Part shown: piece by piece, positions 45,727 to 62,465 of the stretch
How the letters are laid out: every line of letters begins with the position of its first letter
How positions within the stretch are numbered: the first letter of the stretch is position 1
From: Candidatus Woesebacteria bacterium
GTDB taxonomy: Bacteria; Patescibacteriota; Microgenomatia; UBA1400; MFAQ01
Length of the DNA stretch: 64,000 nucleotides
Direction of reading: 5' to 3'
Assembly (NCBI GenBank): GCA_035389185.1
Contig: DAOORK010000001.1
Coordinates: 129,006-193,005, forward strand
The notes under the pieces: generated by a model
What the model was told of the DNA's origin: nothing
Database searches by the model: none
The model's input: the letters and a program-made list of their open reading frames with translations, nothing else
Made by a program: the position numbers and the translations under genes

Positions 45727-45805
45727 ACTTTGATTGTATATTGAGGACAAAGATTTAGATATTTTATTTTCACCAGCTTCAATGGTAAAATATACTGCGT
45801 TGTAT

Positions 45806-47780: not shown

Positions 47781-47813
47781 TACTTATCAATGTACCGCAA
47801 GTTTTCTGTAAGT

Positions 47814-49244
47814 CTAGTCCAGGTATCTAACTCTTGGCTCTCCTTTGCTTGCCTCAGCTATGAAATAGTAAAAACCGAGAGTGAAAGCATCAACTAGATC
47901 ATCGTGTGGCTCTACCCCAAAATGAATAATCTGTCCGATTAGCTCATCGGCTCCATGGACTGGAAAAAGCACTTTACCGTTTTGAATCCAACTACTGGTA
48001 AGTGAGAGTCGACTTCTTTTGTCATTTCCACCGATTGTTATTCCTTTTACGTTTACGCTCTCGGTTTCCAACATTTGGATTAAACTTTTTTGATAAGCAA
48101 CATCTTCTACTAAAACTAAGGGTGAATATTGGAGAAGGGATTGTCGGAGATCATTAATTATTTTGATTGTTTCCGGCATTCCCATTCTTTTATTTACCAT
48201 TGTGGGCATTACCTTCACTTGGATATCTTTGTGGTAACCATACATCAGGAATATTACGATTGCGGTTTTGTCTGCCCTTTGGTTTTCGGAAATAGCAGGA
48301 TCGACAGATATGACGGCACACCTCAGATTTTTTGTATCGATTGGAAGTGTGGAGTCATATCGAGCAATCCACTCCGGTAAAACGACTTGATCACCATCGG
48401 GGATTATTTTAAGCATGAACTCCCGAAGAAAATCGGAATCACTGGCAGTTTTCTTTCTCAATCTTTCAATTGAACGTTTGTCCGTAAACTTCCCCGGCCA
48501 AAGGATTTTGCTTCCCCTCATCAAGGGATACTGTTTATAGATTCCGTCAATTCTTTTCTTGGATATGGCTTTCTTCATCCTCATCATTAGAGAGTCTTCG
48601 TGGACGAGATTACCGATGAAAACAATTTTAGTGTTTTGATCTCCTGAAGGAATAAGCTCCGAGTTTACAAATTGCCAAAGTTTATCTCTTCCTTCTTTCG
48701 TCTTAGCCGACTGCATATCCTCGATATCATCGCAGATGATGAGATCTGGACGGTATTGGCGATGGCGAATACCTCTCATACTTTGTGAAACGGAAACTAC
48801 GGTAATTCTGGCATTGTATCGATCCAAAACTAAACTCTCACTATTCCACTCTCCCTTTTTGGAAGCGAAACTTCCAAAGTCTGTATAAAGTAGTTTGTTT
48901 AACTCCAATTCCGCTTTTATATTTGATAAAGTTTGCTGAGCCTGTTGTTGGGTTTGGCAGACGATCAAAACATATTTCTTTTGTGGCGCACCTACGATTG
49001 ACCAGATCGGGTATGAGAGTGTCATTATGGTCGATTTGGCTGACCCACGGAAGGCAACAATAGCTAGTGTTTTAGTATCGACATTCTCCGTTAAACGAAA
49101 TATTTCCTGTTGGAACTGAGCGGTTTCGTATTTAACAAAAGAAGAGAAATATGTATGGAAAAACCAATAATGTGAACCAAAGGTTACTGATTGCCTTACC
49201 GCTGGATTACCGATGATATTTTCAAAAAGTTTCTGCTTTTCCAT
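47814..49244 (-). CDS. phage terminase large subunit
   Basis: ATPase Walker A-like AFRGSAKST, Walker B LIICDDIED, C-terminal RNase H-like nuclease Asp residues (VISVDPA, LVEDVAYQ, HDDLVDAF). Confidence 0.75.
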   Translation of the reverse strand: MEKQKLFENIIGNPAVRQSVTFGSHYWFFHTYFSSFVKYETAQFQQEIFRLTENVDTKTLAIVAFRGSAKSTIMTLSYPIWSIVGAPQKKYVLIVCQTQQQAQQTLSNIKAELELNKLLYTDFGSFASKKGEWNSESLVLDRYNARITVVSVSQSMRGIRHRQYRPDLIICDDIEDMQSAKTKEGRDKLWQFVNSELIPSGDQNTKIVFIGNLVHEDSLMMRMKKAISKKRIDGIYKQYPLMRGSKILWPGKFTDKRSIERLRKKTASDSDFLREFMLKIIPDGDQVVLPEWIARYDSTLPIDTKNLRCAVISVDPAISENQRADKTAIVIFLMYGYHKDIQVKVMPTMVNKRMGMPETIKIINDLRQSLLQYSPLVLVEDVAYQKSLIQMLETESVNVKGITIGGNDKRSRLSLTSSWIQNGKVLFPVHGADELIGQIIHFGVEPHDDLVDAFTLGFYYFIAEASKGEPRVRYLD

Positions 49245-49656
49245 TTTCTTTGATTGGTTTTTCTTTTATGACTCCTGAAAGCAGAAGTGCTTCTCTTACA
49301 ATTGCCTCTTCATCAGGTGTGAGATCATCACGCAGGTGATTCTGGTCGGAAGAGATTTCCAACTTGGGAATGTATGACTGGTGATGATTTTTGAGCCAGA
49401 AGATGATGGCAGTCATATTCTTGTCTCTTATCGATGAAAGCAACTGCGACTCGGCCATGTCATTAATCATCTCAATGCCTTCTTTGAGAGCTTTATCGCT
49501 TTCCTCTTTGAACTTTTTATCCTCCGACCGCCAACGATAGTAGGTGGCACGGCTAACCCCTGATTTTTCGCAAACGACTTGGACAATTGGTGTCTTTTGC
49601 AACAACTCGATGAGTTTGCTTTTATTTTCTTCTTGACGTTTTTCGATGGTGTTCAT
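49222..49656 (-). CDS. putative terminase small subunit / HTH DNA-binding protein
   Basis: HTH VSRATYYRWR; lies immediately upstream of and overlapping the terminase large subunit. Confidence 0.5.
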   Translation of the reverse strand: MNTIEKRQEENKSKLIELLQKTPIVQVVCEKSGVSRATYYRWRSEDKKFKEESDKALKEGIEMINDMAESQLLSSIRDKNMTAIIFWLKNHHQSYIPKLEISSDQNHLRDDLTPDEEAIVREALLLSGVIKEKPIKENGKAETF

Positions 49657-50978
49657 GTGATTTGTTTAGCTTTTAATCCAGTGAGTCTCTCCCATCTTTT
49701 TTTGATAACCTCAGCGTAGACTGGAGACTTCTCCATGAGATAGCAACGACGTTTCATTTTGGTAGCCGCAATCAAGGTTGACCCGCTGCCACCAAATGGT
49801 TCGACAATCAGGTTACCTCGCTTGGTAAGAACTTTGATGTATGGAATTAATATCTCGGTTGGTTTGGTGCCGAAGATCACACCTTGGCCGGAATGTTTTT
49901 CATCTGAGGCATTAAACTCAATGAAATCTGTTGGTTGTGTTTTCTTTCCTTTCTCATACCCTTCCCATTGAGGTTTGCCAGATATGGCGTAGAGTGCGGT
50001 TTCATATTCTTGCTGGAGTCCGTCTTGTTCTTCCTCGTTGTTGTACTGAATATCCACTTCTTTTGACGCTCCAACCATGGCAATGTCATGTTTGCTGAAG
50101 AACTTATATTTAGCAGAGAAACCTTGATGTCGATTGGGTAAATGCCAAATTATCATATTTTTTACTTTCCAATGTTTTTCCATTTCCCCCCAAATGGTTC
50201 GTAGGTTCTTCCAGTTTTCGTAAACAATGATGGAGAAATGTTCCTTTTGAATATTGGCGATGCTGTTCATCCATTTTTCAGTAAAGTCTAACGGAAGACT
50301 TTCGGTTTCCAAATATCTTCGATCTCTTTTAGCTCCGAATCCTGTTACCGCTTTTCCGTGGCGTTTAGCTTTTAGATAGTCGAGAATGTATGGAGGATCG
50401 GTAAAACACATATCTGCTTTCTCCCCAGCCATCAACTTGAGCCATTCTTCATCGTTGGTGGAATCTCCACACATCAATCTGCTTCCGTCGAGGTCATAAA
50501 TATCACCTTTCTTTATATTTATTTTGGTGATATCCATCTTCAATAGTTCCTTCTGGAGATCAAACTGTTCCGGTGTGTCTTCAATCTCAAAGATTTGATC
50601 TAACTCTTCACTGGAGAAACCAACACTATCCAAAAAAGCAGAATCAAAATCGGCTAACAAACCCCAATCCCATTCACCTGTGTTTTTGTTTAGTCTGAGA
50701 TTTAACTCTTTTTCTTTCTCGATGTCGGGAATATTTACATAGACCACAGGAATTGTTTCGAAGCCCATTTCTTTGGCGACTTCTAACCTGAAATGACCAC
50801 CGATGACAATGTTCTTCCTTTCTGGAGCTTCGTTGACGATGATTGGATCGACCAATCCAAATTTGGTAATACTTTCTTTCAACTGGTCAGCTGATTGTTT
50901 ATCGTGCTTCCTGGGGTTGTATGCCGCAGGATTAAGTTCCTTTATGAAAACTTGGGTTATTTGTATTTGTTTACTCAT
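49653..50978 (-). CDS. ParB-like nuclease domain fused to a DNA methyltransferase (beta-class N4/N6)
   Basis: N-terminal ParB/Srx block (GGHFRLEVAKEMG), motif IV DPPY placed before motif I FGGSGST, so beta-class permutation. Confidence 0.85.
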   Translation of the reverse strand: MSKQIQITQVFIKELNPAAYNPRKHDKQSADQLKESITKFGLVDPIIVNEAPERKNIVIGGHFRLEVAKEMGFETIPVVYVNIPDIEKEKELNLRLNKNTGEWDWGLLADFDSAFLDSVGFSSEELDQIFEIEDTPEQFDLQKELLKMDITKINIKKGDIYDLDGSRLMCGDSTNDEEWLKLMAGEKADMCFTDPPYILDYLKAKRHGKAVTGFGAKRDRRYLETESLPLDFTEKWMNSIANIQKEHFSIIVYENWKNLRTIWGEMEKHWKVKNMIIWHLPNRHQGFSAKYKFFSKHDIAMVGASKEVDIQYNNEEEQDGLQQEYETALYAISGKPQWEGYEKGKKTQPTDFIEFNASDEKHSGQGVIFGTKPTEILIPYIKVLTKRGNLIVEPFGGSGSTLIAATKMKRRCYLMEKSPVYAEVIKKRWERLTGLKAKQIT

Positions 50979-51498: not shown

Positions 51499-51876
51499 TT
51501 AATTTTGACCGTACTTTTTCCCGATTTGGTCTTTGAGTTCTGCCGCGAACTTTTCCAAATCTTGATACTCCTTGTTTATCACAACTTTTACGCCTATTTT
51601 TAGAAGTTCCTCGTTGTATGGTGGGACAGAAGAAATTCCAATTATTTTATCTACTCCAAATTTTTCAAAATCTAATGCATGGAAAGATCCGCCCATGGCA
51701 CAATCACGGTCAAGAAGAATTATGTCGAATTTTAGTTCACTAGGGTTAAGTATCTTTTCGACTTGCTCATAAGTGGAAAAAACTACTGGAGCAAAATCTA
51801 TCTTTGTTTCGAATAATACTCTAAAAATTATCGAGAGCGTCTCCAAATCATCTTCGAGGATAAGCATTGACTTCAT
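51499..51876 (-). CDS. response-regulator receiver-like (CheY-like) domain protein, stand-alone
   Basis: MLILEDD ... ILLDRD pattern (phospho-acceptor Asp position) with alternating beta/alpha periodicity; 125 aa. Confidence 0.4.
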   Translation of the reverse strand: MKSMLILEDDLETLSIIFRVLFETKIDFAPVVFSTYEQVEKILNPSELKFDIILLDRDCAMGGSFHALDFEKFGVDKIIGISSVPPYNEELLKIGVKVVINKEYQDLEKFAAELKDQIGKKYGQN

Positions 51877-53369
51877 TGTCCTTGTTTATCTAAATAGTCT
51901 TTGATAACCATGGTAGCTACACAGTCGTCTTCGTTATACAGAAGAATTCTGTCCATATCGGCCTTGTCTTTGGTTTCAAGATAGTGGTTAAACCATTCAA
52001 TAGACATGGCGCCGGAGGGTGTCTTGTCTCGCCAGCTAAAGCCTAGATACTGAGCAATTTCTTTTAGAGAGTAGCTCATCAAGGGCCAATCGGTATGTTT
52101 GGAAACTACAGAATATAGATCTATTGCTTTTTCTTCACTAAAGAACCAAGCAAGTTCTTCCTCAGTAACCACATCCGGATACTTTTCTCTCATGCGGCGA
52201 TAGGTTGTCTTCTCGTGGTGGGAATAATAGTAAGTAGTAAAGTCGTCTTTGGGTAGTGATCGAATATATTGCCAAAAATTACTCCAGGCTTCTCTTTCTG
52301 ATTCGTCGGTTTTGTCTAATGCAGTAAAGTCTATAAACCTCTCCCCTTTTGGAGAGCGCTCGTATACACCATGAAGATAGACAAAGGCTTGGGTGGGATC
52401 GTCTTCAATATCAAAATATAATTCGTAGCTTGTTTTGGGAAAGTTCATTTTTTCGTAAATGACGGGACTTTTTGTAACTTCCATGATTTTTGATCTTTGA
52501 ACAAACTTTGTGAGTTTTGCCTCTCCCAAACCAAATAAATACTTTTTGTCTTTTTTCTTTTTGGCCAATAGTGTGTCGATGTCCAGGTCAATCAAATCTA
52601 TGTAGCTTTCAATGTCCAAATCTCTTTCTAGGATATCTCTGTTGGCCCTACCGAGACAGAAGATCATACTTGGGTCATGACTCTCTTTTATCCATTTTTT
52701 GCAGCTTGCGTACCATGGGCAAAGTTTGCATTTGCCGGAATATGCTGGTTTGTTTTTTATTTCGTTATTTAAGAGCTTCCCTGCCATTACTTTTGTTTCT
52801 TGGTAAAAGTCCCAGTAAGTTTGAGGTGTTTTTGTGCCAATAGGTTTATCCAAGTCGTATGTAGTTCTCTCGGAGTTAATATCGATAATGGCACCAGAAT
52901 GTTTTTTAGCAAAACCGAGATTGATAAGCACTTCGCAGTAGAGAGCGAGTTGAACCGCATAATGTATTTTGTATTTTCCCTCATTATCATTTTCCTCATC
53001 TACTCCCTCAACTCCCATACCGCTTTTGATGTCGACTGGTAGGTAGGTACCGTCTGGCTGTATTTCTAAGAGGTCCGGAATGCCAAAGAGCTCGCTGTGG
53101 CGAATAGCTCCTTGGTAAATGAGTGGCATTCCTGCATTCATGGCTTCTAGAGTGGCTTTTTCTCTTTCTTTCTCCCCTACTTCTTTGAGATCCAGAATCT
53201 TTCCCAGCTTGCCCACTATATTTTCTTCGTGACTGACTCCTTTTTCCCAAAGCATTTCTACAAAGGGATTTGTATCTGGATTCTTTTCGGCCTTTGGGCC
53301 ATACACATCACGCCAAATACGATGTTCGCACTGGAGGTAGTTATATAGTTTAGATGGTGTGATTTTCAT
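51873..53369 (-). CDS. RecB-family nuclease, TM0106-like (Cas4-like PD-(D/E)xK with Fe-S cysteines, plus a C-terminal RNase H-like domain)
   Basis: N-terminal Cys (YLQCEH), IPDLLEI...VDIK, QLALYCEV (QxxxY), CKLCPWYASC; C-terminal FDIEDD ... YYSHHEKT ... YNEDDC; ATGA overlap with the receiver gene. Confidence 0.55.
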   Translation of the reverse strand: MKITPSKLYNYLQCEHRIWRDVYGPKAEKNPDTNPFVEMLWEKGVSHEENIVGKLGKILDLKEVGEKEREKATLEAMNAGMPLIYQGAIRHSELFGIPDLLEIQPDGTYLPVDIKSGMGVEGVDEENDNEGKYKIHYAVQLALYCEVLINLGFAKKHSGAIIDINSERTTYDLDKPIGTKTPQTYWDFYQETKVMAGKLLNNEIKNKPAYSGKCKLCPWYASCKKWIKESHDPSMIFCLGRANRDILERDLDIESYIDLIDLDIDTLLAKKKKDKKYLFGLGEAKLTKFVQRSKIMEVTKSPVIYEKMNFPKTSYELYFDIEDDPTQAFVYLHGVYERSPKGERFIDFTALDKTDESEREAWSNFWQYIRSLPKDDFTTYYYSHHEKTTYRRMREKYPDVVTEEELAWFFSEEKAIDLYSVVSKHTDWPLMSYSLKEIAQYLGFSWRDKTPSGAMSIEWFNHYLETKDKADMDRILLYNEDDCVATMVIKDYLDKQGQ

Positions 53370-53462
53370 TTAGACAAGGCGACTCCTGTGTTTTATATGC
53401 ACTCTTCGGGTGGTGGCTAAATTATATGCCAGTTATTCATCAATAGAGTTACAATAGAAACT

Positions 53463-56400
53463 ATGACTTTCAATAAAATATTGGATCGTTTTAGGTCTGA
53501 ATCATTTTCTGAGCGAGATAAGGGATTTAAGTTTGAAAGGCTTATTCAAGCATATTTATACACTGACCCAAAATATACCCACCTACAAAAGATATGGCTT
53601 TGGGGTGAATTTCCCTTTCGCTCCTCATTTGGAGGCCAAGATGTAGGAATTGATTTGGTTGCTAAAACATTTGAAGGTGAATATTGGGCAATACAATGCA
53701 AATGTTATCAAGAAGATAATCGCATTAATAAAGAGGAGGTCGATACTTTCTTAGCCACATCGAGTCGCAGTTTTAAGGATGAACAATTAGCAGAGATCAA
53801 ATTTAGTCACTGTCTTTGGGTTTCTACAACAAATAATTGGTCCTCAAATGCGAACGAATCGTTGCAAAATCAAAATCCTCCGGTAACCAGAATAAATCTA
53901 TCTGACTTACAGGAAGCATCTGTTGACTGGTCTAAAATAAGTGAAGGAATGTATGGTGAGAAAGCACGAACTCCTAAGAAGCAACTTAAATATCACCAAA
54001 AAGAGGCCCTTGATAAAGCCATAAACTATTTTAAGAATGACAACCGTGGAAAATTAATCATGGCTTGCGGCACAGGCAAGACTTTTACCAGTCTAAAGAT
54101 TGCAGAGGAACTGACAAATCACACTGGTACTATTTTGTTCTTAGTCCCCTCGATCGCCTTACTCGGACAATCTCTTCGAGAGTGGACAAGTGACGCCGCA
54201 GAAGAAATAAATCCTATTGCAATCTGTTCTGATTCGGAAATTACAAAAGACAAAAAAAAGAATGAAGACACCGACACCTACAGTGTAGTTGACTTAGCTA
54301 TCCCCGCCTCTACAAACATGAGAGACATTCTCAAACAATTTGAGTATTTTGAAATGGCAAAAAAGAAAGGCCTGACCGTTGTCTTCTCCACATATCAGTC
54401 AATTGATGTAATTTCCCAGACCCAGAAGAGACTTGAAAGTATCGGGAGTAAGTACCAAAAGTTTGATCTTATTGTATGCGATGAAGCACACCGTACTACT
54501 GGAGTAACGATTTCCGGAGAGGATGAATCATCATTTGTCAAAGTACACGACAATGCTTTCATTAATGCAGATAAGCGTATATACATGACTGCCACACCTA
54601 GACTATATGGTGAAGAGTCAAAGAGAAAAGCTGAAGAAACATCTGCTGTGTTGTGCTCAATGGATGATGAGGCACTTTATGGTAAAGAAATATATCGCAT
54701 TGGCTTTGGTGAGGCAGTTGAACGAGATTTACTGTCGGACTACAAGGTCTTAATCCTTACTCTTTCCGAAAATGATGTAACTCCAGAGGTCCAAAAAATA
54801 CTCCAGAATCCTGAACACGAAATCGGTGTTGATGATGCTTCAAAGTTGATTGGATGTATAAATGCAATGTCAAAACAAATTATTAGTGATAAGGGCACTG
54901 TGAACACAAATGACCCTGATCCTATGCGACGTGCCGTGGCATTTACTTCGAGCATAAAGATTTCCAAAAAAATTACTGATTCGTTTAATGAAATTGGTGA
55001 AACTTACGCAAAATCAGTTCCGGAACTAAAACAACAAACACTAGTAAACCTTAACTCAAAACACATAGATGGATCTATGTCTGCGACTGACCGCAATGAG
55101 CTTATGTCTTGGCTAAAGGCAGAGCCTAACGACTCCCAAGAGGCTCGGGTTCTCACAAATGTTAGATGTTTAAGTGAAGGTGTTGATGTACCAACTCTCG
55201 ATGCTGTTATGTTCCTTTCGGCAAAGAACTCCCAAATTGATGTAGTTCAATCAGTGGGTCGAGTAATGCGAAAAAGTCCAGGTAAACAATATGGTTATAT
55301 TATTATTCCTATTGTTATCCCAACAGATGTTAAACCTGAAGATGCTCTGAAAGATAATGATAGATATAAGGTTGTCTGGACAGTATTAAACGCACTACGT
55401 GCACATGATGACCGATTTAACGCGATTGTAAATAAGATCGATCTAAACAAAAATCGTCCAGTACAAATTATTATCGGAAGGCCAGATCCAGATGGTGATG
55501 GAGATCCTTTTAATGATTCTGACGAATCAAAAAAGGCACTCAAGGGTTCTCAGCTAGCATTACAATTTGATCAACTCCAAAATGCTATTTATGCGAAAAT
55601 GGTGCAAAAAGTTGGTGATCGTCAATATTGGGAAAACTGGGCAAAAAGTGTTGCAGACATAGCTGAAAGGCAGATTGTAAGAATCACGAAGATAGTTGAC
55701 GAAGATGACTCTGCGCACATGGGCTTCCGTGAATTTGTTCGAGGTCTACGAAAAAATATAAATCCATCGATAACTGAACAGCAGGCTATTGAAATGTTGT
55801 CGCAACACATAATCACAAAACCAGTTTTTGAGGCATTGTTTGAAGGGTATTCTTTTGTTTCAAACAATGCAGTGTCCATATCTATGCAAAAAGCACTTGA
55901 TGCTATAGAAACAAAGGCTATCGAAGATGTTGATGCAGAGCTTCTTCAGGGGTTTTATAAATCAGTTCGAAAACGAGCAGAGGGAATTGATAATTCAGAA
56001 GGAAAACAAAGAATAATAGTTGAGCTTTACGACAAATTTTTTAAGACTGCATTTCCAAAACTGGTAGAGCAGTTGGGCATAGTATATACACCTGTGGAGG
56101 TGGTTGATTTCATAATCCACTCCATAAATGATGTGTTACAAAATGAATTTGGTCGTAGCTTGAGTGATGAGAATGTAAATATTCTCGACCCATTCACTGG
56201 GACAGGAACATTTATTACTCGCTTATTACAGACTGGTGTAATAAAGCATCAAGATCTTGAAAGAAAATACAAGGGAGAAATTTTTGCTAATGAAATAGTA
56301 CTACTTGCCTACTACATAGCAGCAGTAAATATTGAAAATGCATATCATGATCTGCTTAAAAAAGATGTCTATGAGAGTTTTGAAGGTATTGTTCTTACTG

Positions 56401-58325
56401 ACACCTTCCAGCTGAGTGAAGATGGCGACAATGAAAAATTATTTTGTGATGCGTTAGCAGAAAACTCAGAGAGACTTGAACGTCAGAAAAATACACCTCT
56501 TAAAGTGATCATGGGAAACCCACCATATTCGGTTGGCCAAACTTCAGCAAATGACGCGTCACAAAATCAAAGCTATCCAAAACTAGAAAACCGAATCGGA
56601 CAGACATATGTATCTCAAATCACCGATAACACCCTCAAGCAATCACTATATGATGCATATATTAAGGCGTTCCGCTGGGCCACTGATCGCCTTGATAAAG
56701 ATGGTGGAATTATCTGTTTTGTTTCTAATGGAGCCTGGCTTGACGGAAAAGCTACCTCTGGATTTAGAAAAACAATTGAAAATGAGTTTACTAGTGTTTA
56801 TGTCTTTAATCTTCGAGGTAACCAACGAACAAATGGAGAAGAATCTCGTCGCGAGGGGGGGAAAATATTCGGAAGTGGCTCTCGTACACCGATTTCTATC
56901 ACACTACTAGTCAAAAATCCAAACAAACATAACGATAAAGCTGAGATTTTGTATCACGACATTGGAGACTATCTAAGTCGGGAAGAAAAACTGAAAATTA
57001 TATCTGATTTTAAGACAGTATCAAATCAAAAATTAGTCTGGAAAACGCTTAATCCAAACAATGAGGGAGATTGGATAAACAAACGTCATAGCATTTTTGA
57101 TACTTATGTAGAGCTTGGTTCAAAAGCTAAAAATAAGAACTCGTGCTTTGATCTGTATTCTGCTGGAGTTATTACGCATCGCGATGCATGGGTTTACGAC
57201 TTCAGCGAAATTAAGCTGGAAGATAAACTAACCAGAATGATTTCCTTTTATAACAGTGAGGCAAAAAAGCTGCAAGTGATGAGGCAAAAAAATCATAGAG
57301 TATCTGTCGAGAAAAGTGTTAATAAAGATTCTAAACTTATCAAATGGGATCGTAGGCTGTATGAACATGCTGATAAATCTGTAGTTCACACCTTTAATAG
57401 TGCTGATATTTATACAACGCTATATCGCCCATTCTCGAAACAACATTATTATTTCAATAAAAATTTAAGCTGGAGCAGATACTTACAACCGAAGCTATTT
57501 CCCTACCCCACGAGCAGTAATCTTGTGATCTGCACCACAGGACCAGGAGCAAACAAGGATTTTTCTGCATTAATGAGCAATGTTGTCACTGACTTCCATA
57601 CGTTAATGAATAATCAATCTTTTCCGCTATATTACTATGAAAAGAATGAACAAAATATTCCTTCTCTTTTCGATTTAGAAAAGAATAACGAATATAACAA
57701 GAGAGATAGTATAAGTGATTACGTTTTGCGTAAAGCACAAACACAATATTCTGATAATGAAATCAGCAAAGAAGATATCTTTTATTACATATATGGACTG
57801 CTTCATAGCATGGACTATCGAATTGAGTTTGCAAATGATTTAAAAAAAATGTCACCTAAAATTCCCCTTGTTGAAACAATAAGTGATTTCAAGAAATTTA
57901 GTAAAGCAGGTAGAAAATTGGGAGAACTACATGTAAACTACGAAAAAGTTCCCCCATATGAAGGTGTTAGGGTGAGCGGGACACAGCACAATAACTATCT
58001 TGTTGAGAAACTCAAATTCATTAAGAAGGGACAACGTGACACAATAATATTTAACAATCAAATAAAGATTGAGAATATCCCCGAAATTGCTTATAAGTAT
58101 GTTGTAAATGGGAAGAGTGCAATTGAATGGATTGTCGAGAAATATCAGATTAAAACGGATAAGGAAAGCGGAATAGTTAATGATCCAAATGATTGGGCGA
58201 AGGAAGTTGGAAATCCCAGATATATTCTTGATTTGCTTCTGAGTGTAATTAATTTAAGTGTTCAAACAGTGGACATTGTAAATAGCTTACCCAAGCTAAG
58301 TTTTGACACTGGGACAAAAGAATAA
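53463..58325 (+). CDS. Type ISP-like single-polypeptide restriction-modification enzyme (Mrr nuclease, SF2 helicase-like ATPase, gamma-class N6-adenine methyltransferase, target-recognition domain)
   Basis: N-terminus GQDVGIDLVA...IQCKCY (Mrr PD-QxK); LIMACGTGKTFT (motif I), VCDEAHRTTG (DEAH), QSVGRVMR (motif VI); DPFTGTGTF (methyltransferase motif I) then NPPY; 1620 aa. Confidence 0.7.
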   Translation: MTFNKILDRFRSESFSERDKGFKFERLIQAYLYTDPKYTHLQKIWLWGEFPFRSSFGGQDVGIDLVAKTFEGEYWAIQCKCYQEDNRINKEEVDTFLATSSRSFKDEQLAEIKFSHCLWVSTTNNWSSNANESLQNQNPPVTRINLSDLQEASVDWSKISEGMYGEKARTPKKQLKYHQKEALDKAINYFKNDNRGKLIMACGTGKTFTSLKIAEELTNHTGTILFLVPSIALLGQSLREWTSDAAEEINPIAICSDSEITKDKKKNEDTDTYSVVDLAIPASTNMRDILKQFEYFEMAKKKGLTVVFSTYQSIDVISQTQKRLESIGSKYQKFDLIVCDEAHRTTGVTISGEDESSFVKVHDNAFINADKRIYMTATPRLYGEESKRKAEETSAVLCSMDDEALYGKEIYRIGFGEAVERDLLSDYKVLILTLSENDVTPEVQKILQNPEHEIGVDDASKLIGCINAMSKQIISDKGTVNTNDPDPMRRAVAFTSSIKISKKITDSFNEIGETYAKSVPELKQQTLVNLNSKHIDGSMSATDRNELMSWLKAEPNDSQEARVLTNVRCLSEGVDVPTLDAVMFLSAKNSQIDVVQSVGRVMRKSPGKQYGYIIIPIVIPTDVKPEDALKDNDRYKVVWTVLNALRAHDDRFNAIVNKIDLNKNRPVQIIIGRPDPDGDGDPFNDSDESKKALKGSQLALQFDQLQNAIYAKMVQKVGDRQYWENWAKSVADIAERQIVRITKIVDEDDSAHMGFREFVRGLRKNINPSITEQQAIEMLSQHIITKPVFEALFEGYSFVSNNAVSISMQKALDAIETKAIEDVDAELLQGFYKSVRKRAEGIDNSEGKQRIIVELYDKFFKTAFPKLVEQLGIVYTPVEVVDFIIHSINDVLQNEFGRSLSDENVNILDPFTGTGTFITRLLQTGVIKHQDLERKYKGEIFANEIVLLAYYIAAVNIENAYHDLLKKDVYESFEGIVLTDTFQLSEDGDNEKLFCDALAENSERLERQKNTPLKVIMGNPPYSVGQTSANDASQNQSYPKLENRIGQTYVSQITDNTLKQSLYDAYIKAFRWATDRLDKDGGIICFVSNGAWLDGKATSGFRKTIENEFTSVYVFNLRGNQRTNGEESRREGGKIFGSGSRTPISITLLVKNPNKHNDKAEILYHDIGDYLSREEKLKIISDFKTVSNQKLVWKTLNPNNEGDWINKRHSIFDTYVELGSKAKNKNSCFDLYSAGVITHRDAWVYDFSEIKLEDKLTRMISFYNSEAKKLQVMRQKNHRVSVEKSVNKDSKLIKWDRRLYEHADKSVVHTFNSADIYTTLYRPFSKQHYYFNKNLSWSRYLQPKLFPYPTSSNLVICTTGPGANKDFSALMSNVVTDFHTLMNNQSFPLYYYEKNEQNIPSLFDLEKNNEYNKRDSISDYVLRKAQTQYSDNEISKEDIFYYIYGLLHSMDYRIEFANDLKKMSPKIPLVETISDFKKFSKAGRKLGELHVNYEKVPPYEGVRVSGTQHNNYLVEKLKFIKKGQRDTIIFNNQIKIENIPEIAYKYVVNGKSAIEWIVEKYQIKTDKESGIVNDPNDWAKEVGNPRYILDLLLSVINLSVQTVDIVNSLPKLSFDTGTKE

Positions 58326-58326
58326 T

Positions 58327-59757
58327 ATGGAATGGCTAGTCCTCATGGGAGGAGTTCTATTAGTCGGATATTTTCTCGGTAAATCAGATAAGTCTGGTAG
58401 AGAGGTTAGCACTCCTGATCCAGTCAAATCTGTACAATCAGGTCAATTTCCTAAGAAACTAAATGTTAAGCATGAGGAAATTGACAGCATTAATCTTAGT
58501 GATGAGCAATCTGAAATATTTAACTTACTAGAAACGACAAATAATGCTTATTATGTAACTGGAAAAGCAGGCACTGGTAAATCCATACTATTAAAATATT
58601 TTGTTACCCATACTGGAAAAAGAGTTGTTGTAGTTGCTCCTACAGGAGTGGCTGCTCTAAATATTGGTGGCCAGACAATACATTCACTTTTTAAGATGCC
58701 ATTTGATATCGATTTTAATGATATCAAGGTTGATTACAGAACCAGAGAGCTATTGAGAAATATCGATACGGTAGTTATTGATGAAGTATCAATGGTTCGT
58801 GCTGATTTGATGGAGGCAATGAATATTAAACTGCAAATATCCAGAGGAAATACTCTGCCGTTTGGTGATGTCCAAATGATAATGTTTGGTGATTTGTATC
58901 AATTACCTCCAGTCGTAAGTGATGGCGAATTACAAAGATACTTAAATCATAAGTTTGGTGGACACTATTTCTTTAACGCACCGTCAATAAACAAAGCTAA
59001 TCTGCAAACCTATGAACTTAAAAAAGTATTTCGGCAGAAAGATGCTGAATTTATAAGAATATTGGATGCCGTAAGGAGAGGTGTAATTAAAGAAATTGAC
59101 TTAGAGGCACTTAACGAACGTTCTCGTGCCGATAAACCTACTGATGGATATGTAACTCTGGCAGGAACAAATGAAACTGTGTCGTATATCAACCATAAAA
59201 ACTTAGATAAACTCCCTGGAGAAGAAAAGGTATATGAGGCTGAAATATGGGGAGATATCACAGAGAATTCGTTTCCAACTGAAAAGAAGTTGAGACTTAA
59301 AATTGGTGCTCAAATTATGATGCTAAAAAATGACACTGAGAAACCGAGGCGATGGGTAAATGGAACACTTGGCGTAATTACAAAATTAAGTCAAGACGTG
59401 GTTCGCGTAAACATTGATGGAGTTGAGCACACCATCACACCCGCAAACTGGGACAAAATTCAATACGAATACGACCCAGATAATCGAGAGCTAAACAAAA
59501 AAGTTGTAAGTTCTTTTAAGCAATTACCATTACGATTGGCTTGGGCTATAACAATCCATAAATCACAAGGGCAAACATATAAAACAATTGCAATTGATTT
59601 AACAGGTGGTGCGTTTGCTCACGGACAGACATATGTTGCACTCAGTAGATGTGTCTCGCTAGAAGGAATATATCTTAATGCTCCAATCAAGAAGGAGGAC
59701 ATCATTGTTGACCCTGACATTATTGAATTTATGAGCAAGGCGGTGGTACTTAATTAA
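58327..59757 (+). CDS. PIF1/RecD-like SF1B helicase
   Basis: VTGKAGTGKS Walker A, VVIDEVSM Walker B, C-terminal LAWAITIHKSQGQTY...VALSRC (PIF1 motifs V and VI); ATG 1 nt after the upstream stop. Confidence 0.7.
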   Translation: MEWLVLMGGVLLVGYFLGKSDKSGREVSTPDPVKSVQSGQFPKKLNVKHEEIDSINLSDEQSEIFNLLETTNNAYYVTGKAGTGKSILLKYFVTHTGKRVVVVAPTGVAALNIGGQTIHSLFKMPFDIDFNDIKVDYRTRELLRNIDTVVIDEVSMVRADLMEAMNIKLQISRGNTLPFGDVQMIMFGDLYQLPPVVSDGELQRYLNHKFGGHYFFNAPSINKANLQTYELKKVFRQKDAEFIRILDAVRRGVIKEIDLEALNERSRADKPTDGYVTLAGTNETVSYINHKNLDKLPGEEKVYEAEIWGDITENSFPTEKKLRLKIGAQIMMLKNDTEKPRRWVNGTLGVITKLSQDVVRVNIDGVEHTITPANWDKIQYEYDPDNRELNKKVVSSFKQLPLRLAWAITIHKSQGQTYKTIAIDLTGGAFAHGQTYVALSRCVSLEGIYLNAPIKKEDIIVDPDIIEFMSKAVVLN

Positions 59758-59795
59758 TAATAATTGGAATTGTTAAGACATTGGCGGTGCCGATG

Positions 59796-61313
59796 TTATT
59801 TCTTTACTTCAGGGTTAAGGAAGAATTCTGGACCTTGGGAATCGTAAAGGCTTTTGAGTTCCAGAATATATGACTTGTTAAGTAGGTAGGTACTGCCGTC
59901 TTTGACAGTTTCCCAAGTTCCCTCGTAGGTTTTTCGTATCTGTTCGCCATTGACCCACTCTGCCATGCCAAACATGACATAAACTAGATTTGGTTTGATT
60001 TCCTCAACACGGAACACCTCAACACTTATGACATTTGGGAAGCGAGCTGTCCACTCTGCATAGGTTGATTTGGTTTTGTAGGATGGACTCAAAAGATCGT
60101 AGCAACCCTGAGTGTCTCTGGCTTTTAGAAGATAGTAGTAGGCATAAACTGATGCCTTTGGTGATGCACCTGGCTCTAGCTTTATTTTTTTGGGTTCCTC
60201 TTTGGTAGCTAACTTTGCGGTATCTAAAGTGTCTCCACTAATAATTAGTGAAGTACCCGAAGTTGTCATTGTATTTATGCCGACAAAGTCACCACACTTG
60301 TCAAATACTGGTCCACCACTCATTCCTGATACTAGAGCTGAAGAGAATTGATAATATTCCGCCTTATCTTGTGGCATGACACGAACATCTACGTATCGAA
60401 TAGGGAGAACTGTTGGTGATCCCTTAATATCTGAACCCAATGGATAGCCAAATGATAGGAACTCTTCACCAGAAACCATTTTTGCCTTATTTCCATTAAC
60501 AACATACCCTGGCTCGTTTATATTTATTGTAATGATGGCAATATCGTAGTCTTTGGACATTTCTACCTTTGTAGGAGTAATGAACTCTCCTGTTGGAAGA
60601 ACTATTTTTGGAAAATCTTCACCTTCTACTACATGTCTATTGGTAATAACTGTAGTTTGGTCTATGAAGAAACCTGAACCCTCTGAATACGAGCCGATAA
60701 TCCTGACTACTTTTGGTGAAATCTTTGTCTTTGTGTCTTGGTATGAACAGAAAAATTTATCATATCCATTTAATTGAGAATACAGGCGGTATTCAAGAGT
60801 AGAGATGTAAAGAAGCGAAACCAAAAGAACAAACGAGAACATAAAGTACTGTGGTTTTTTGAAGATGAGCTTGAAGTAGGCTGGAATTGACAAGGCTATT
60901 ACAAATATACTCGCGAGTCCGATTGGAAGTGCAAGACTGAAGAAGTAACGATAATGATCCGCTGCTAACACAGAGGCATTTACGTCTGGAGAGGTGTAGA
61001 TGAAGGCTATAGGAATGGATATCAGCCCTACAATACCCAACGGGACTGAGAAAAAACGAGAAATTTTTCTGAGTAATTTGAAGGATATGATAAATAAGGC
61101 TATTGGGAGATAGAAATAGGCAAGAATTTCAAAAAAGTTATTTGACTCTTCGAAGTTGAAATTAGTTTTTGAACAGTACCACCAGAATATTAAATATACC
61201 CAGATGTAGAGCTTCCAATTAAACAGTATCCCAAAAAATCTACTGAGCTTGGGTCTAACTCCAAATTGAACCCGTAAAGATGTCCCTACTTTTCTTAATA
61301 TTCGTGATGTCAC
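59796..61313 (-). CDS. membrane-anchored trypsin-like serine protease (S1 family)
   Basis: Multi-TM N-terminus; catalytic triad context TNRHVV (His), DYDIAII (Asp), GMSGGPVF (Ser); extra C-terminal domain. Confidence 0.6.
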   Translation of the reverse strand: MTSRILRKVGTSLRVQFGVRPKLSRFFGILFNWKLYIWVYLIFWWYCSKTNFNFEESNNFFEILAYFYLPIALFIISFKLLRKISRFFSVPLGIVGLISIPIAFIYTSPDVNASVLAADHYRYFFSLALPIGLASIFVIALSIPAYFKLIFKKPQYFMFSFVLLVSLLYISTLEYRLYSQLNGYDKFFCSYQDTKTKISPKVVRIIGSYSEGSGFFIDQTTVITNRHVVEGEDFPKIVLPTGEFITPTKVEMSKDYDIAIITININEPGYVVNGNKAKMVSGEEFLSFGYPLGSDIKGSPTVLPIRYVDVRVMPQDKAEYYQFSSALVSGMSGGPVFDKCGDFVGINTMTTSGTSLIISGDTLDTAKLATKEEPKKIKLEPGASPKASVYAYYYLLKARDTQGCYDLLSPSYKTKSTYAEWTARFPNVISVEVFRVEEIKPNLVYVMFGMAEWVNGEQIRKTYEGTWETVKDGSTYLLNKSYILELKSLYDSQGPEFFLNPEVKK

Positions 61314-61379: not shown

Positions 61380-62465
61380 ATGGATATGTCCAAATACATC
61401 CTAACTAGTGATGGAAAGATTCATGTAAGAACTGATAACGTGAGCTTGCTTGATGTTGATGAGAAATTTGAAGAAGCTGCGAGATTGATAATATTGGAAG
61501 GAAGAGGTTCGGCGTCGATATTACAGAGAAGATTAGAGGTCGGGTATGCAAGAGCCGCGAGAATATTGGATCAACTTGAACAAGCAGGAATTCTAGGACG
61601 ATCCGAGGGGAATAAACCTAGAGAAGTGATTATTAGCTCTTTTGATGAATTTATAAAAAGTGATGGAAAAGAGGTTGGACCAGAAGAAGTATTTCCAGAG
61701 GATATTAAGAAGGAGTGGGCACCAAAAGAGATTGCAGATGCAGTTATGTCAAATCTACAGAAAGAAGCCTTATATGTGGAGGGAATAATGATTCCGGTGG
61801 GAATGGAGAAAAAGAGAATGATTTCTGCTTCACTGGACAATCTTGGTCATATCTATATTTTTAATAGCCCAATGTGTAACTCGATTGGACTACTTAAATC
61901 GCAACTGGAATTTCTAACTAATACATATAGCCCAGATGCACTTAAGCTGATTGTGAGTGATGATACTAGATTGTTTTCGAACTCTACAATTGCTGACTCA
62001 CCTCACATGCTGACTCCGGTAATTTATGACCAGAGCAAAGTCCAAAACGCACTTGGTTGGGTGAGTGCTGAGATTGAAAGAAGATTCCGAATTCTTCAAG
62101 AGACAGGTGTGAGTAGTTTTGACGCTTATGGAAAAACAGGGAATCCCCCACTGCCTAGAATTATTTGTGTTGTTAGTAGTACTTCTAGCAGACTGGCATA
62201 TAACGAAGATTGTCATTATGGTATTGAAAACATACTAAATTCTGGTCATTTGGTTGGTGTGCATTTGATTGTTGCATCGCCACTAATTGAGAGGAAGTTC
62301 TCTAAACTGATGACTTCGTTCCCCACAAAGATTATCTTTAAAACATTCTCTGCTTCACAAGCAGACTTGCTAGGAACTGATGATGCATTCGATCTGACCA
62401 GTGGTGATGAGTTTGTATTTGTACCGGCATATGGTGAGATACAAAAATTGAAAGTGAATGGATAA
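61380..62465 (+). CDS. FtsK/SpoIIIE-like protein with an N-terminal gamma domain and a degenerate (Walker A-less) motor domain
   Basis: EAARLIILEGRGSASILQRRLEVGYARAARILDQLEQAGILG matches the FtsK gamma winged helix; HLVGVHLIVASP...KIIFKTFSASQADLLG matches the FtsK motor C-terminus, but GxxGxGKS is absent and the Walker B region reads VVSSTSS. Confidence 0.55.
   Translation: MDMSKYILTSDGKIHVRTDNVSLLDVDEKFEEAARLIILEGRGSASILQRRLEVGYARAARILDQLEQAGILGRSEGNKPREVIISSFDEFIKSDGKEVGPEEVFPEDIKKEWAPKEIADAVMSNLQKEALYVEGIMIPVGMEKKRMISASLDNLGHIYIFNSPMCNSIGLLKSQLEFLTNTYSPDALKLIVSDDTRLFSNSTIADSPHMLTPVIYDQSKVQNALGWVSAEIERRFRILQETGVSSFDAYGKTGNPPLPRIICVVSSTSSRLAYNEDCHYGIENILNSGHLVGVHLIVASPLIERKFSKLMTSFPTKIIFKTFSASQADLLGTDDAFDLTSGDEFVFVPAYGEIQKLKVNG

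What the first reader, a model, noticed from the sequence alone, without database searches (positions are those of the whole stretch)
53463..59757. 1620-aa Type ISP-like restriction-modification polypeptide translationally coupled to a PIF1/RecD-like helicase carrying a hydrophobic N-terminal extension
The large ORF has the full LlaGI-type order on one chain: Mrr-like PD-QxK nuclease, DEAH SF2 ATPase, gamma-class N6A methyltransferase (DPFTGTGTF then NPPY) and about 470 aa of target-recognition domain. Its stop (58323-58325) is followed after 1 nt by the ATG of a 476-aa PIF1-family helicase. That helicase's first about 25 residues are hydrophobic (MEWLVLMGGVLLVGYFLGKS), which is unusual for a soluble helicase. 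Type ISP enzymes are normally described as acting alone. A dedicated, possibly membrane-tethered SF1B helicase partner would be a new variant.
Basis: partly seen in the sequence, partly recalled or inferred. Interest (0 to 1): 0.65.

Follow-up and report, generated by a model that had tools for sequence, protein, structure and literature searches.

The report
Type ISP restriction enzyme with Pif1 partner
A complete single-chain Type ISP restriction-modification gene in a Candidate Phyla Radiation bacterium (the record is named Candidatus Woesebacteria) is followed 1 nt later by a Pif1 helicase gene with a short N-terminal membrane anchor, and this gene pair recurs across many related tiny bacteria, which suggests that an enzyme thought to work alone has a regular helper there.

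Summary
ORF 53463-58325 encodes a canonical 1620-aa Type ISP enzyme. It aligns end to end with LlaBIII and all catalytic motifs are intact. Its TAA is followed after 1 nt by the ATG of a 476-aa bacterial Pif1 helicase. That helicase has an N-terminal hydrophobic helix (aa 3-17) and a roughly 30-aa disordered linker.

The pairing is not chance. Adjacency was read directly in 8 differently arranged CPR loci. The two proteins co-diverge (Mantel r = 0.60).

The carrier cassette (ParB-methylase, TerS, TerL, serine recombinase) also occurs with Type I R-M instead of ISP. Those copies lack the helicase, so the helicase travels with ISP and not with the terminase/recombinase backbone. A third gene, DUF2779 (a Cas4-like plus DEDD-exonuclease fusion), follows the helicase in 6 of the 7 other arrangements and survives as a remnant in the seventh.

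Caveats:
- Close helicase orthologues also occur without ISP.
- The anchor is a family trait, not specific to ISP-linked copies.
- Other genes can sit between the two.
- ISP enzymes outside CPR stand alone.
- Functional cooperation is inferred, not shown.

Verdict: a new variant of a known kind, of moderate to high interest.

The parts
53426..53455 (+). Weak sigma-70-like promoter match (ATGCCA-18-TACAAT) in the 93-nt divergent intergenic region just upstream of the ISP start.
   Evidence: It matches 9 of 12 positions and is a consensus match only. Such sites are not enriched over shuffles in this region.
53463..58325 (+). Type ISP restriction-modification enzyme, 1620 aa, complete.
   Evidence: PADLOC REase_MTase_IIG, 2257 bits. 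(LlaBIII 4XQK and LlaGI 5FFJ, E=0). (all catalytic motifs invariant in 37 partner-linked homologues).
53562..53951 (+). Mrr-like PD-QxK nuclease domain (aa 34-163; D64, Q78, K80).
53979..55274 (+). SF2 helicase-like translocase ATPase (aa 173-604): Walker A ACGTGKT at 201, DEAH at 340, TATP at 376, QSVGRVMR at 596.
55626..56003 (+). Type ISP coupler domain (aa 722-847).
   Evidence: PF22240, E=1e-46.
56040..57002 (+). Gamma-class N6-adenine methyltransferase region (about aa 860-1180): motif I DPFTGTGTF at 909, motif IV NPPY at 1019.
   Evidence: aligned to the LlaGI methyltransferase. Domain limits are approximate.
57144..58235 (+). Type ISP C-terminal target-recognition domain (aa 1228-1591).
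   Evidence: PF18135, E=4e-104.
58327..59757 (+). Pif1-family SF1B helicase, 476 aa. Its start is 1 nt after the ISP stop.
   Evidence: phrog_325, E=7e-90; bacterial Pif1 structures.
58327..58380 (+). N-terminal hydrophobic anchor helix (aa 1-18, MEWLVLMGGVLLVGYFLG). There is no K/R before it and 3 K/R in the 15 residues after it, so the inferred orientation is N-out, C-in.
58381..58482 (+). Variable, low-complexity, disordered linker (aa 19-52).
   Evidence: pLDDT below 50 for aa 18-49.
58483..59739 (+). Pif1 helicase core (aa 53-471): Walker A GKAGTGKS, Walker B VIDEVSM, Pif1 signature region around PFGDVQMIMFGDLYQLPPV, and the 2B domain.
59777..59807 (+). Terminator-like hairpin (9-bp stem) with a T-rich tail, 20 nt after the helicase stop. 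It is the longest-stemmed terminator-like site in the region. No terminator-like site lies at the ISP-helicase junction.
   Evidence: consensus match only.
51873..53369 (-). TM0106-family RecB-like nuclease, 498 aa (Cas4-like PD-(D/E)XK plus RNase H-like 3'-5' exonuclease), transcribed divergently from ISP. It may stand in for the DUF2779 gene found in the other loci. Whether it belongs to the module is uncertain.
   Evidence: PDDEXK_1 and RNase_H_2. (TIGR03491, 232 bits, cut-off 97). (end-to-end hhalign to the DUF2779 profile, E=2e-4, probability 46%). Against: 0 of 120 homologues share a contig length with the ISP or Pif1 hit lists; no BLASTP similarity.
46455..50978 (-). Context, not part of the module. 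This is the mobile-element backbone on the - strand, transcribed in this order: ParB_N-N6/N4 methylase (50978 down to 49653), TerS-like (49656 down to 49222), TerL (49244 down to 47814), large serine recombinase (47780 down to 46455). It abuts chromosomal ruvC (45253-45750).
   Evidence: (the same four-gene cassette in L277, L282, L284, L285 and L286).

Best explanation
This is a Type ISP restriction-modification system specific to Candidate Phyla Radiation (CPR) bacteria. It comes as a conserved gene module rather than a single gene.

The module has three parts:
1. A fully equipped Type ISP enzyme.
2. Immediately downstream, in the same transcription unit, a Pif1 (SF1B, 5'-3') helicase. A single N-terminal helix and a flexible linker of about 30 aa appear to tether it to the cytoplasmic face of the membrane.
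3. Usually a Cas4-like plus DEDD-exonuclease fusion (DUF2779). In this window DUF2779 is absent, and a distantly similar TM0106-family nuclease lies next to ISP.

The module is cargo on mobile islands. Here the island has a backbone of ParB-methylase, TerS, TerL and a serine recombinase, inserted next to ruvC.

Shown:
- the identity and intactness of both proteins
- the operon-like layout
- conservation, co-divergence and portability of the pair
- its independence from the island backbone

Inferred:
- The ISP enzyme works as LlaGI and LlaBIII do. It recognises unmethylated sites, translocates on dsDNA, and nicks or cuts when two enzymes collide.
- The helicase, with the nuclease, acts after this step. 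It loads at the nicks or ends and unwinds the DNA so that it is degraded, doing the job RecBCD does after restriction in E. coli.
- Because the helicase is held at the membrane, this would happen where foreign DNA enters the cell.

My confidence varies by step:
- the linkage is real and maintained by selection: about 0.9
- the helicase cooperates functionally with ISP: about 0.5 (this is the overall confidence given)
- the specific post-cleavage unwinding and degradation role: about 0.25
For: Identity:
- ISP is collinear with LlaBIII and LlaGI, and all its motifs are invariant in 37 homologues.
- The helicase is a bacterial Pif1.

Layout:
- 1-nt gap, no terminator-like site at the junction, terminator-like hairpin right after the helicase.
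- No conserved Shine-Dalgarno sequence before the helicase ATG in ISP-linked loci. Gaps are 0-3 nt, which fits reinitiation of translation.

Conservation:
- ISP followed by Pif1 was read directly, besides the window, in L083, L086, L269, L277 and L279 (gap 0-3 nt), and in L263 and L276 with one gene inserted. The surroundings differ in each.
- 37 of the 120 closest helicase clusters share their longest contig's exact length with a close ISP cluster. This is 37 of the 75 that have a contig of at least 7 kb, and it spans most helicase subclusters down to 56% identity.
- Distances in the helicase core correlate with distances in ISP aa 1-1150 (Mantel r=0.60, p=2e-4). That is as strong as the correlation between ISP's own two halves (0.59).

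Specificity:
- The same ParB-methylase/TerS/TerL/SerRec cassette occurs without ISP and without Pif1 in L282, L284, L285 and L286. In L284, L286 and L287 it sits next to Type I R-M instead.
- L279 keeps GmrSD_N, ISP and Pif1 with no terminase or recombinase within 10 kb.
- Among all 364 loci fetched, DUF2779 occurs only in ISP-Pif1 loci: intact in 6 arrangements, a 45-53-aa remnant in L279-L281.
- DUF2779 is a Cas4-like plus 3'-5' exonuclease fusion (PMC13621843, PMC3985635).

Anchor:
- Present in 35 of 37 ISP-linked helicases.
- The positive-inside pattern predicts a cytoplasmic helicase domain.
- AlphaFold2 gives helix 3-17 and a disordered 18-49.
Against: - Helicase orthologues 65-68% identical to the window helicase, two of them (P0026, P0023) in the same 70%-identity cluster as ISP-linked copies, occur without any ISP gene: L264 (after smpB), L275 (start overlapping a DUF402 gene), L265. 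A 61% one (L267) also lacks ISP. The helicase therefore has, or can have, a role that does not need ISP.
- The anchor is also found on ISP-less relatives (L001, L004, L005, L092, L099, L103, L174, L175, L208).
- Unrelated genes can be inserted between ISP and the helicase (L263, L276). Translational coupling is therefore not required.
- Type ISP enzymes are biochemically self-sufficient (PMC3553950, PMC4666363).
- All 17 non-CPR or more distant ISP loci examined lack a Pif1 neighbour.
- None of 240 loci with helicase relatives at 34-56% identity has ISP.
- The window itself lacks DUF2779, and its TM0106 nuclease is not specifically linked to the pair elsewhere.
- The contig cross-match is indirect. 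It shows the same contig, not adjacency.
- No experiment or interaction prediction was done.
Confidence: 0.5

Rival explanations
1. Synteny without a shared mechanism. The Pif1 helicase, with DUF2779, would be a replication, recombination or maintenance module of a small mobile island. ISP would be that island's defence or addiction gene. The genes stay together because they move together, not because they act on the same DNA substrate.
For: - Pif1/Dda-like helicases are common replication genes of phages and mobile elements (phrog_325, E=7e-90; 80 IMG/VR loci with relatives).
- The module lies in islands with recombinases, terminase genes, FtsK-like or T4SS coupling proteins and a Replic_Relax gene.
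- Genes can be inserted between ISP and the helicase.
- The helicase occurs without ISP.
Against: - Cassettes with the same ParB-methylase/TerS/TerL/SerRec backbone that carry Type I R-M, or no ISP, lack the helicase and DUF2779.
- The pair persists where no mobility genes are near (L279).
- ISP-less helicase loci have no terminase, ParB-methylase or DUF2779.
Confidence: 0.25
2. Defence-island neighbours. The membrane-tethered Pif1 would be an independent gene, either a stand-alone defence gene or a general CPR DNA-metabolism gene. Restriction genes (ISP, GmrSD, Ymh, UvrD, OLD) would simply pile up beside it.
For: - Variable defence-type genes surround and interrupt the module: GmrSD_N in L269 and L279; GmrSD in ISP-less L267; Hypoth_Ymh in L263 and L276; UvrD in L276; OLD with UvrD in L086; OLD in L277; RT-Cas1/Cas2 in L276.
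- The helicase occurs alone in chromosomal settings.
- PADLOC gives only generic SF1 hits.
Against: - Order and orientation are fixed (ISP upstream, gap 0-3 nt) in 6 arrangements (the window plus five others).
- The two proteins co-diverge at r=0.60.
- DUF2779 is found only where ISP and Pif1 are found.
- About half of the close helicase homologues are ISP-linked, far above what loose island clustering would give.
Confidence: 0.15
3. Partnership with a different mechanism. The helicase would protect the host rather than attack the invader. It would act as a Pif1/Rrm3/Dda-type 'sweepase' that strips translocating or stalled ISP motors from host DNA. After replication, host sites are transiently unmethylated because Type ISP enzymes methylate only one strand.
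For: - General knowledge: Type ISP enzymes methylate one strand, and Pif1-family helicases displace proteins from DNA.
- The conserved linkage evidence fits this as well.
- The layout fits low-level, coupled expression of the helicase.
Against: - It does not explain the membrane anchor.
- It does not explain the recurrent Cas4/DEDD nuclease.
- Type ISP enzymes elsewhere manage without such a helper.
Confidence: 0.1
4. Chance adjacency in one compact genome.
For: CPR genomes are gene-dense, and gaps of 0-3 nt are common. The helicase start also overlaps an unrelated DUF402 gene in L275.
Against: There are eight independent arrangements, 37 contig co-occurrences and co-divergence.
Confidence: 0.02

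Closest known systems
Type ISP R-M enzymes LlaGI and LlaBIII (Lactococcus plasmids; PDB 5FFJ, 4XQK)
   Same: Single chain with Mrr nuclease, SF2 translocase, coupler, gamma N6A methyltransferase and TRD. Full-length collinear alignment, all motifs present.
   Different: The described enzymes are single-gene systems. Here and in many CPR relatives the gene is followed by a conserved Pif1 helicase and usually a DUF2779 nuclease. ISP genes on non-CPR plasmids and in IMG/VR have neither.
Bacterial Pif1 helicases (Bacteroides BaPif1 5FTB/5FHD, ToPif1 6S3E, and 8BNS)
   Same: The core (aa 53-471) aligns with E=1e-75 to 3e-107. Walker A and B, the Pif1 signature region and the 2B domain are present.
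   Different: This helicase carries an N-terminal hydrophobic helix and a disordered linker. None of the listed solved chains aligns with the hydrophobic helix (aa 1-18): all but one matched stretch start at query aa 53-60, and that one (7bil) starts at aa 7. Actinobacterial, Omnitrophota and most phage relatives also lack this extension. It is encoded in an R-M operon.
Restriction followed by RecBCD degradation in E. coli, and helicase-nuclease machines (RecBCD, AddAB, Dna2)
   Same: An SF1B 5'-3' helicase sits beside a Cas4/RecB-type PD-(D/E)XK nuclease, next to a restriction enzyme that produces nicks and breaks. This is a functional analogy from general knowledge.
   Different: No homology-based membership is claimed. 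The helicase and nuclease are separate small proteins encoded with the R-M gene, and one is membrane-tethered. Their activity on restricted DNA is untested.
Two-component ATP-dependent restriction enzymes with a separate motor subunit (CglI/NgoAVII R plus H; PMC5737866, PMC5861437)
   Same: A restriction nuclease gene is paired with a separate helicase-like ATPase gene.
   Different: In CglI the H subunit is the only motor and is SF2 (DEAD-Z1). Here ISP already has its own SF2 motor, and the extra protein is an SF1B Pif1.
Nuclease-helicase defence pairs (Gabija GajA/GajB, Hachiman HamA/HamB)
   Same: A defence locus combines a nuclease with an SF1/SF2 helicase. OLD, alone or with UvrD, is even found next to the module in L086, L277 and L286.
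   Different: PADLOC gives only partial, motif-level hits for the helicase (typeIV_RecD, RecD_like, PDC-S68, PDC-M16A, Nhi, AbiO). None covers the whole protein, and none of these systems includes an R-M enzyme.

Membership tests
Type ISP restriction-modification enzymes | N-terminal Mrr-like PD-(D/E/Q)xK nuclease on the same chain | tested here: met
   PF13156, aa 34-163, E=8e-45. D64, Q78 and K80 are invariant in 37 homologues.
Type ISP restriction-modification enzymes | SF2 helicase-like translocase with Walker A, DEAH and motif VI | tested here: met
   ResIII and Helicase_C. GTGKT, DEAH, TATP and QxxGRxxR are invariant.
Type ISP restriction-modification enzymes | Coupler domain between the ATPase and the methyltransferase | tested here: met
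   PF22240, aa 722-847, E=1e-46, full profile length.
Type ISP restriction-modification enzymes | Gamma-class N6-adenine methyltransferase (motif I before NPPY) and C-terminal TRD | tested here: met
   DPFTGTGTF at 909, NPPY at 1019. PF18135, aa 1228-1591, E=4e-104. Collinear with LlaBIII 4XQK over aa 2-1613.
Type ISP restriction-modification enzymes | ATP-driven translocation, collision-dependent cleavage, single-strand methylation | not testable with these tools
   Needs biochemistry. Inferred from homology to LlaGI and LlaBIII (PMC3553950, PMC4666363).
Type ISP restriction-modification enzymes | Stand-alone, single-gene system, as usually described | tested here: not met
   A conserved downstream Pif1 gene is present, and usually DUF2779, in CPR relatives. 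The enzyme itself is still a member. Only the single-gene organisation differs.
Pif1-family SF1B helicases | Walker A and B, Pif1 signature region and SH3-like 2B domain | tested here: met
   PF05970 E=2e-32, PF21530 E=9e-8. GKAGTGKS, DE, FGDLYQLPPV and others are invariant in 30 homologues. Solved bacterial Pif1 chains at E down to 3e-107. AlphaFold2 model with a confident core.
Pif1-family SF1B helicases | 5'-3' ssDNA translocation and unwinding | not testable with these tools
   Inferred from family membership.
Single-pass membrane-anchored protein (N-out, C-in) | One N-terminal hydrophobic helix long enough to span a membrane, with positive charges on the cytoplasmic side | tested here: inconclusive
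   The uncharged run is 16-17 residues, which is short for a membrane span. There are 0 K/R before it and about 3 K/R in the 15 residues after it. It is conserved in about 104 of 120 homologues. AlphaFold2 gives helix 3-17 at pLDDT about 60. No dedicated transmembrane predictor or experiment was available.
DUF2779 (PF11074; Cas4-like plus DEDD exonuclease) | Significant match to the family | tested here: not met
   There is no DUF2779 in the window (tblastn and HMM). The neighbouring 498-aa protein is TIGR03491/TM0106 (232 bits). It aligns with a DUF2779 profile only at E=2e-4, probability 46%. The architecture is the same but the family is different.
Known multi-gene defence systems with SF1 helicases (PADLOC: type IV CRISPR RecD, PDC-M16, PDC-S68, Nhi, AbiO) | Full-length match of the helicase to the system's model, and presence of the system's other genes | tested here: not met
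   Only partial matches, over aa 41-260 or 52-365, E=1e-7 to 1e-22. The partner genes of those systems were not found among the ten neighbouring window ORFs scanned.

The most novel reading that the evidence does not exclude
In CPR bacteria, Type ISP restriction has become a three-part, membrane-associated machine. The ISP enzyme marks and nicks foreign DNA. A membrane-tethered Pif1 unwinds it from the nicks. A Cas4-like/DEDD dual nuclease degrades both strands. This would be a self-contained substitute for the RecBCD step of restriction. In these nucleotide-auxotrophic cells it might also feed nucleotide salvage.
Probability: 0.2. Interest if true: 0.8.

Novelty: new variant of a known kind. 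Interest (0 to 1): 0.6.

Why it matters
Type ISP enzymes are the textbook case of a restriction system that carries every activity on one chain. A conserved, co-inherited helicase (and nuclease) partner would show that even these enzymes can depend on, or gain from, accessory DNA-processing proteins.

It would also give a concrete, testable role to bacterial Pif1 helicases, whose cellular functions are mostly unknown. It would describe a membrane-tethered Pif1, and none of the three papers that hold 'Pif1', 'transmembrane helix', 'bacterial' and 'N-terminal' is about a membrane-anchored bacterial Pif1, judging by title and abstract.

Finally, it adds to the thin picture of how CPR/Patescibacteria, which mostly lack CRISPR, defend themselves. 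It also flags a family of terminase-bearing integrative cassettes that ferry ATP-dependent R-M systems between these genomes.

Tried and rejected
- Megablast of the locus against phage and plasmid collections found no match.
They returned only relatives at 34-56% identity (240 loci), none with ISP. On its own this suggested the pairing was not conserved. Exact-protein look-ups of closer homologues later overturned that impression.
- A single-protein helicase scan of IMG/VR found nothing.
- I first read the helicase as a conserved chromosomal CPR gene next to an inserted ISP gene. I dropped this because the pair moves together between unrelated contexts.
- I then read the helicase as the island's replication gene. 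This was weakened by cassettes with the same backbone that lack it.
- I tested the window's 498-aa nuclease as an orthologue of DUF2779. BLASTP found nothing, and the profile comparison was only marginal. Its homologues share no contig length with the ISP or Pif1 hit lists, so it is reported only as a possible analogue.
- PHROG scans of the rest of the island, looking for capsid or portal genes, found none.
- I did not look for att-site direct repeats. Serine recombinases do not need them, and the island's right end lies outside the window.
- A midpoint-rooted neighbour-joining tree script timed out. Average-linkage clustering replaced it.

Full report
**Observation**

The window holds an uninterrupted ORF at 53463-58325 (+) of 1620 aa. 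Its stop TAA is at 58323-58325. One base follows, and then the ATG at 58327 opens a 476-aa ORF that ends at 59757.

Pfam finds these domains in the large protein, in this order: Mrr_cat_2 (aa 34-163), ResIII / Helicase_C (173-604), ISP_coupler (722-847) and Type_ISP_C (1228-1591). The E-values run from 1e-11 (Helicase_C) to 4e-104 (Type_ISP_C). PADLOC's full-length model for this enzyme class scores 2257 bits. The protein aligns from aa 2 to 1613 with the solved LlaBIII chain, and also with LlaGI. The nuclease residues (D64, Q78, K80), the ATPase motifs, and methyltransferase motifs I (DPFTGTGTF, 909) and IV (NPPY, 1019) are present. They are invariant in 37 close homologues.

The second protein is a genuine Pif1 helicase. 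It matches PF05970 and the Pif1 2B domain and phrog_325. Solved bacterial Pif1 chains match at E=1e-75 to 3e-107 over aa 53-471.

Its first 18 residues (MEWLVLMGGVLLVGYFLG) form a hydrophobic segment. A variable Ser/Lys/Pro-rich stretch follows. AlphaFold2 with a 30-sequence alignment gives a helix at aa 3-17, a disordered stretch at aa 18-49 and a confident helicase core (mean pLDDT 79).

**Source and setting**

The exact helicase and ISP proteins occur on contigs of up to 905 kb. NCBI names the source Candidatus Woesebacteria, which is a CPR/Patescibacteria lineage.

- ruvB, ruvA and ruvC lie at 43220-45750 and mark the chromosome.
- From 46455 onwards the genes are those of an inserted element. 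On the - strand, in transcription order, come a ParB_N-N6/N4 methylase, a TerS-like protein, TerL and a large serine recombinase.
- Next come two small ORFs and a 498-aa TM0106-family RecB-like nuclease on the - strand.
- ISP and Pif1 are transcribed divergently from these, on the + strand.
- Downstream lie a trypsin-like protein and an FtsK-gamma/FtsK-like ATPase.
- The longer contig shows about ten more unannotated genes before adenylate kinase. None of those scanned matched a phage structural family.

**Is the pairing conserved?**

The first broad scans suggested it was not. Among 240 loci with helicase relatives at 34-56% identity (mostly Microbacteriaceae, Omnitrophota, Melainabacteria and phage contigs), none has a Type ISP gene within 10 kb. 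Among 14 IMG/VR loci with ISP at 44-60% identity, none has a Pif1 relative. Three annotated non-CPR plasmids show ISP standing alone.

The closer CPR homologues tell a different story. Exact-protein look-ups gave the following:

| Locus | Arrangement |
|---|---|
| L083 | ISP then Pif1, gap 0 |
| L086 | ISP then Pif1, gap 2 |
| L269 | ISP then Pif1, gap 3 |
| L277 | ISP then Pif1, gap 0 |
| L279 | ISP then Pif1, gap 1 |
| L263 | 767-aa ORF between ISP and Pif1 |
| L276 | Hypoth_Ymh gene between ISP and Pif1 |

The surroundings differ in every case.

The homologue tables also report each cluster's longest contig, so I cross-matched the two lists. 37 of the 120 best helicase clusters share an exact contig length with one of the best ISP clusters. 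This is 37 of the 75 that have a contig of at least 7 kb. The matches cover most helicase subclusters, down to 56% identity. This is a lower bound, and it shows co-residence on a contig rather than adjacency. In all eight loci read directly, including two chosen because of the cross-match, the genes were adjacent or one gene apart.

Over the 37 pairs, distances in the helicase core correlate with distances in ISP aa 1-1150 (Mantel r=0.60, p=2e-4). The two halves of ISP itself correlate at 0.59. The pair has therefore been inherited as a unit over substantial divergence: up to 43% for the helicase and 35% for ISP.

**Does the helicase belong to the island backbone?**

A scan with the ParB-methylase found IMG/VR contigs that carry the same contiguous four-gene cassette (ParB-methylase, TerS, TerL, serine recombinase) with neither ISP nor Pif1. 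These are L282, L284, L285 and L286. In L284, L286 and L287 the cassette sits next to a Type I R-M system, with an OLD nuclease as well in L286.

In L277 the trio of ISP, Pif1 and DUF2779 is inserted between TerL and the recombinase. In L279 the pair sits with a GmrSD_N-domain gene and no mobility genes within 10 kb. The helicase therefore travels with ISP and not with the terminase/recombinase backbone.

**A third recurrent gene**

DUF2779 proteins of about 445-495 aa follow the helicase in L083, L086, L263, L269, L276 and L277. They come either directly after it or after further genes:

- L083: one gene, a 323-aa ORF.
- L269: one gene, GmrSD_N.
- L276: one gene, UvrD.
- L263: DUF2130 plus Ymh.
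- L086: about 4 kb downstream, beyond the TerS-like gene, the ParB-methylase and four small genes.

L279-L281 keep a 45-53-aa DUF2779 remnant at the same place. DUF2779 occurs in no other of the 364 loci fetched. Published sequence analyses describe DUF2779 as an uncharacterised fusion of a Cas4-like PD-(D/E)XK nuclease and a DEDD 3'-5' exonuclease (PMC13621843, PMC3985635).

The window has no DUF2779. Its divergent neighbour is a TM0106-family nuclease with the same two-domain architecture. That protein aligns end to end with a DUF2779 profile, but only marginally (E=2e-4, probability 46%). BLASTP finds no similarity. None of its 120 best homologues shares a contig length with the ISP or Pif1 lists. 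I list it only as a possible analogue.

**Limits on the word 'dedicated'**

- Orthologues 65-68% identical to the window helicase lack ISP. Two of them (P0026, P0023) fall in the same 70%-identity cluster as ISP-linked copies. These loci are L264 (after smpB), L275 (start overlapping a DUF402 gene at the end of a metabolic operon) and L265. L267, at 61%, lies downstream of a GmrSD gene, a 711-aa ORF and a 63-aa ORF.
- The anchor is a trait of CPR-type Pif1 proteins. About 104 of the 120 closest homologues have it, as do 35 of the 37 ISP-linked ones and several ISP-less relatives. Actinobacterial, Omnitrophota and most phage copies lack it.
- A tight junction is not specific to ISP, as L275 shows.

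**Operon layout and anchor orientation**

In the window there is a weak promoter-like site at 53426-53455. No terminator-like site lies at the junction between the genes. A 9-bp hairpin with a T-rich tail starts 20 nt after the helicase stop. No conserved Shine-Dalgarno sequence precedes the helicase ATG in ISP-linked loci. This fits reinitiation after ISP termination, but that is an inference.

The N-terminal flank of the anchor has no K/R. The 15 residues after it carry about three. This predicts an N-out, C-in orientation, with the helicase domain in the cytoplasm.

**Mechanism (inferred)**

LlaGI and LlaBIII recognise unmodified sites, translocate on dsDNA and cut non-specifically when two enzymes converge (PMC3553950, PMC4666363, PMC7049714). 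The ISP here has every element needed for that.

An SF1B 5'-3' helicase together with a Cas4/DEDD dual nuclease is the kind of pair that processes nicks and ends. My preferred reading is that they finish the destruction of restricted DNA. That is the role RecBCD plays in E. coli (general knowledge). The anchor would hold the helicase at the membrane, where foreign DNA enters the cell.

The alternatives are:
- synteny within a mobile island, with no shared mechanism
- independent neighbours in a defence island
- a host-protective 'sweepase' role

These are listed with their tests under rival explanations.

**Novelty**

No paper in the searchable library holds both 'Type ISP' and 'Pif1', or both 'Patescibacteria' and 'Type ISP'. 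The one paper that holds 'Type ISP' and 'RecD' concerns CglI. None of the three papers that hold 'Pif1' together with 'transmembrane helix', 'bacterial' and 'N-terminal' is about a membrane-anchored bacterial Pif1, judging by title and abstract. PADLOC models this enzyme class as a single gene.

I rate this a new variant of a known kind. The comparative evidence for the linkage is solid, but the function is untested.

Noticed in passing
window 46455-50978 (- strand); also L277, L282, L284, L285, L286, L287: A four-gene cassette (ParB_N-N6/N4 methylase, TerS-like, TerL, large serine recombinase) recurs in CPR contigs. The methylase is 63-74% identical across copies. No capsid genes were detected. 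Wherever enough flank was available, the cassette lies next to an ATP-dependent R-M system (Type ISP or Type I). It may be a terminase-bearing integrative element, or a satellite, that ferries R-M systems.
   Followed up: partly
window 51873-53369 (-): A 498-aa TM0106-family RecB-like nuclease (TIGR03491, 232 bits) combines a Cas4-like PD-(D/E)XK domain with an RNase H-like 3'-5' exonuclease. It is widespread in Patescibacteria at 55-70% identity. It aligns end to end, though weakly, with DUF2779.
   Followed up: partly
window 59796-61313 (-) and 61380-62465 (+): A 505-aa protein has a C-terminal-half trypsin-like protease domain. PADLOC hits fall on the protease parts of RT-Protease, LmuA and HamA models. 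It converges on the helicase. After it comes a 361-aa protein with an FtsK-gamma winged helix followed by an FtsK/SpoIIIE ATPase. Both are inside the island and their roles are unknown.
   Followed up: no
window 58340-58353: A small hairpin (TCCTC-ATGG-GAGGA) lies inside the anchor-coding region. Its loop holds the second in-frame ATG (Met7), and its 3' arm is a GGAGG-like sequence. This may be coincidence or a translational feature.
   Followed up: no
L276 1-2809; L086 1-2466; L277 1-1739; L286 7517-9229: Other defence genes lie next to the ISP-Pif1 module or its carrier cassette in CPR contigs: an RT-Cas1 fusion with Cas2 (L276), an OLD-family nuclease with UvrD in a Gabija-like pair (L086), and OLD alone (L277, L286).
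   Followed up: no
L279-L281, about 12165-12323 (9112-9270 in L280): A 62-aa ORF (54 aa in L280) downstream of Pif1 and a DUF2726 gene is a remnant of DUF2779. It is 68-81% identical over 45-53 aa to intact copies, so the third gene has recently been lost in that lineage.
   Followed up: yes
L267 6415-9995; L269 6871-8589; L279 3259-5073: GmrSD-type (Type IV restriction) genes recur next to the anchored Pif1, both with and without ISP. This hints that the helicase may associate with restriction nucleases more generally.
   Followed up: no
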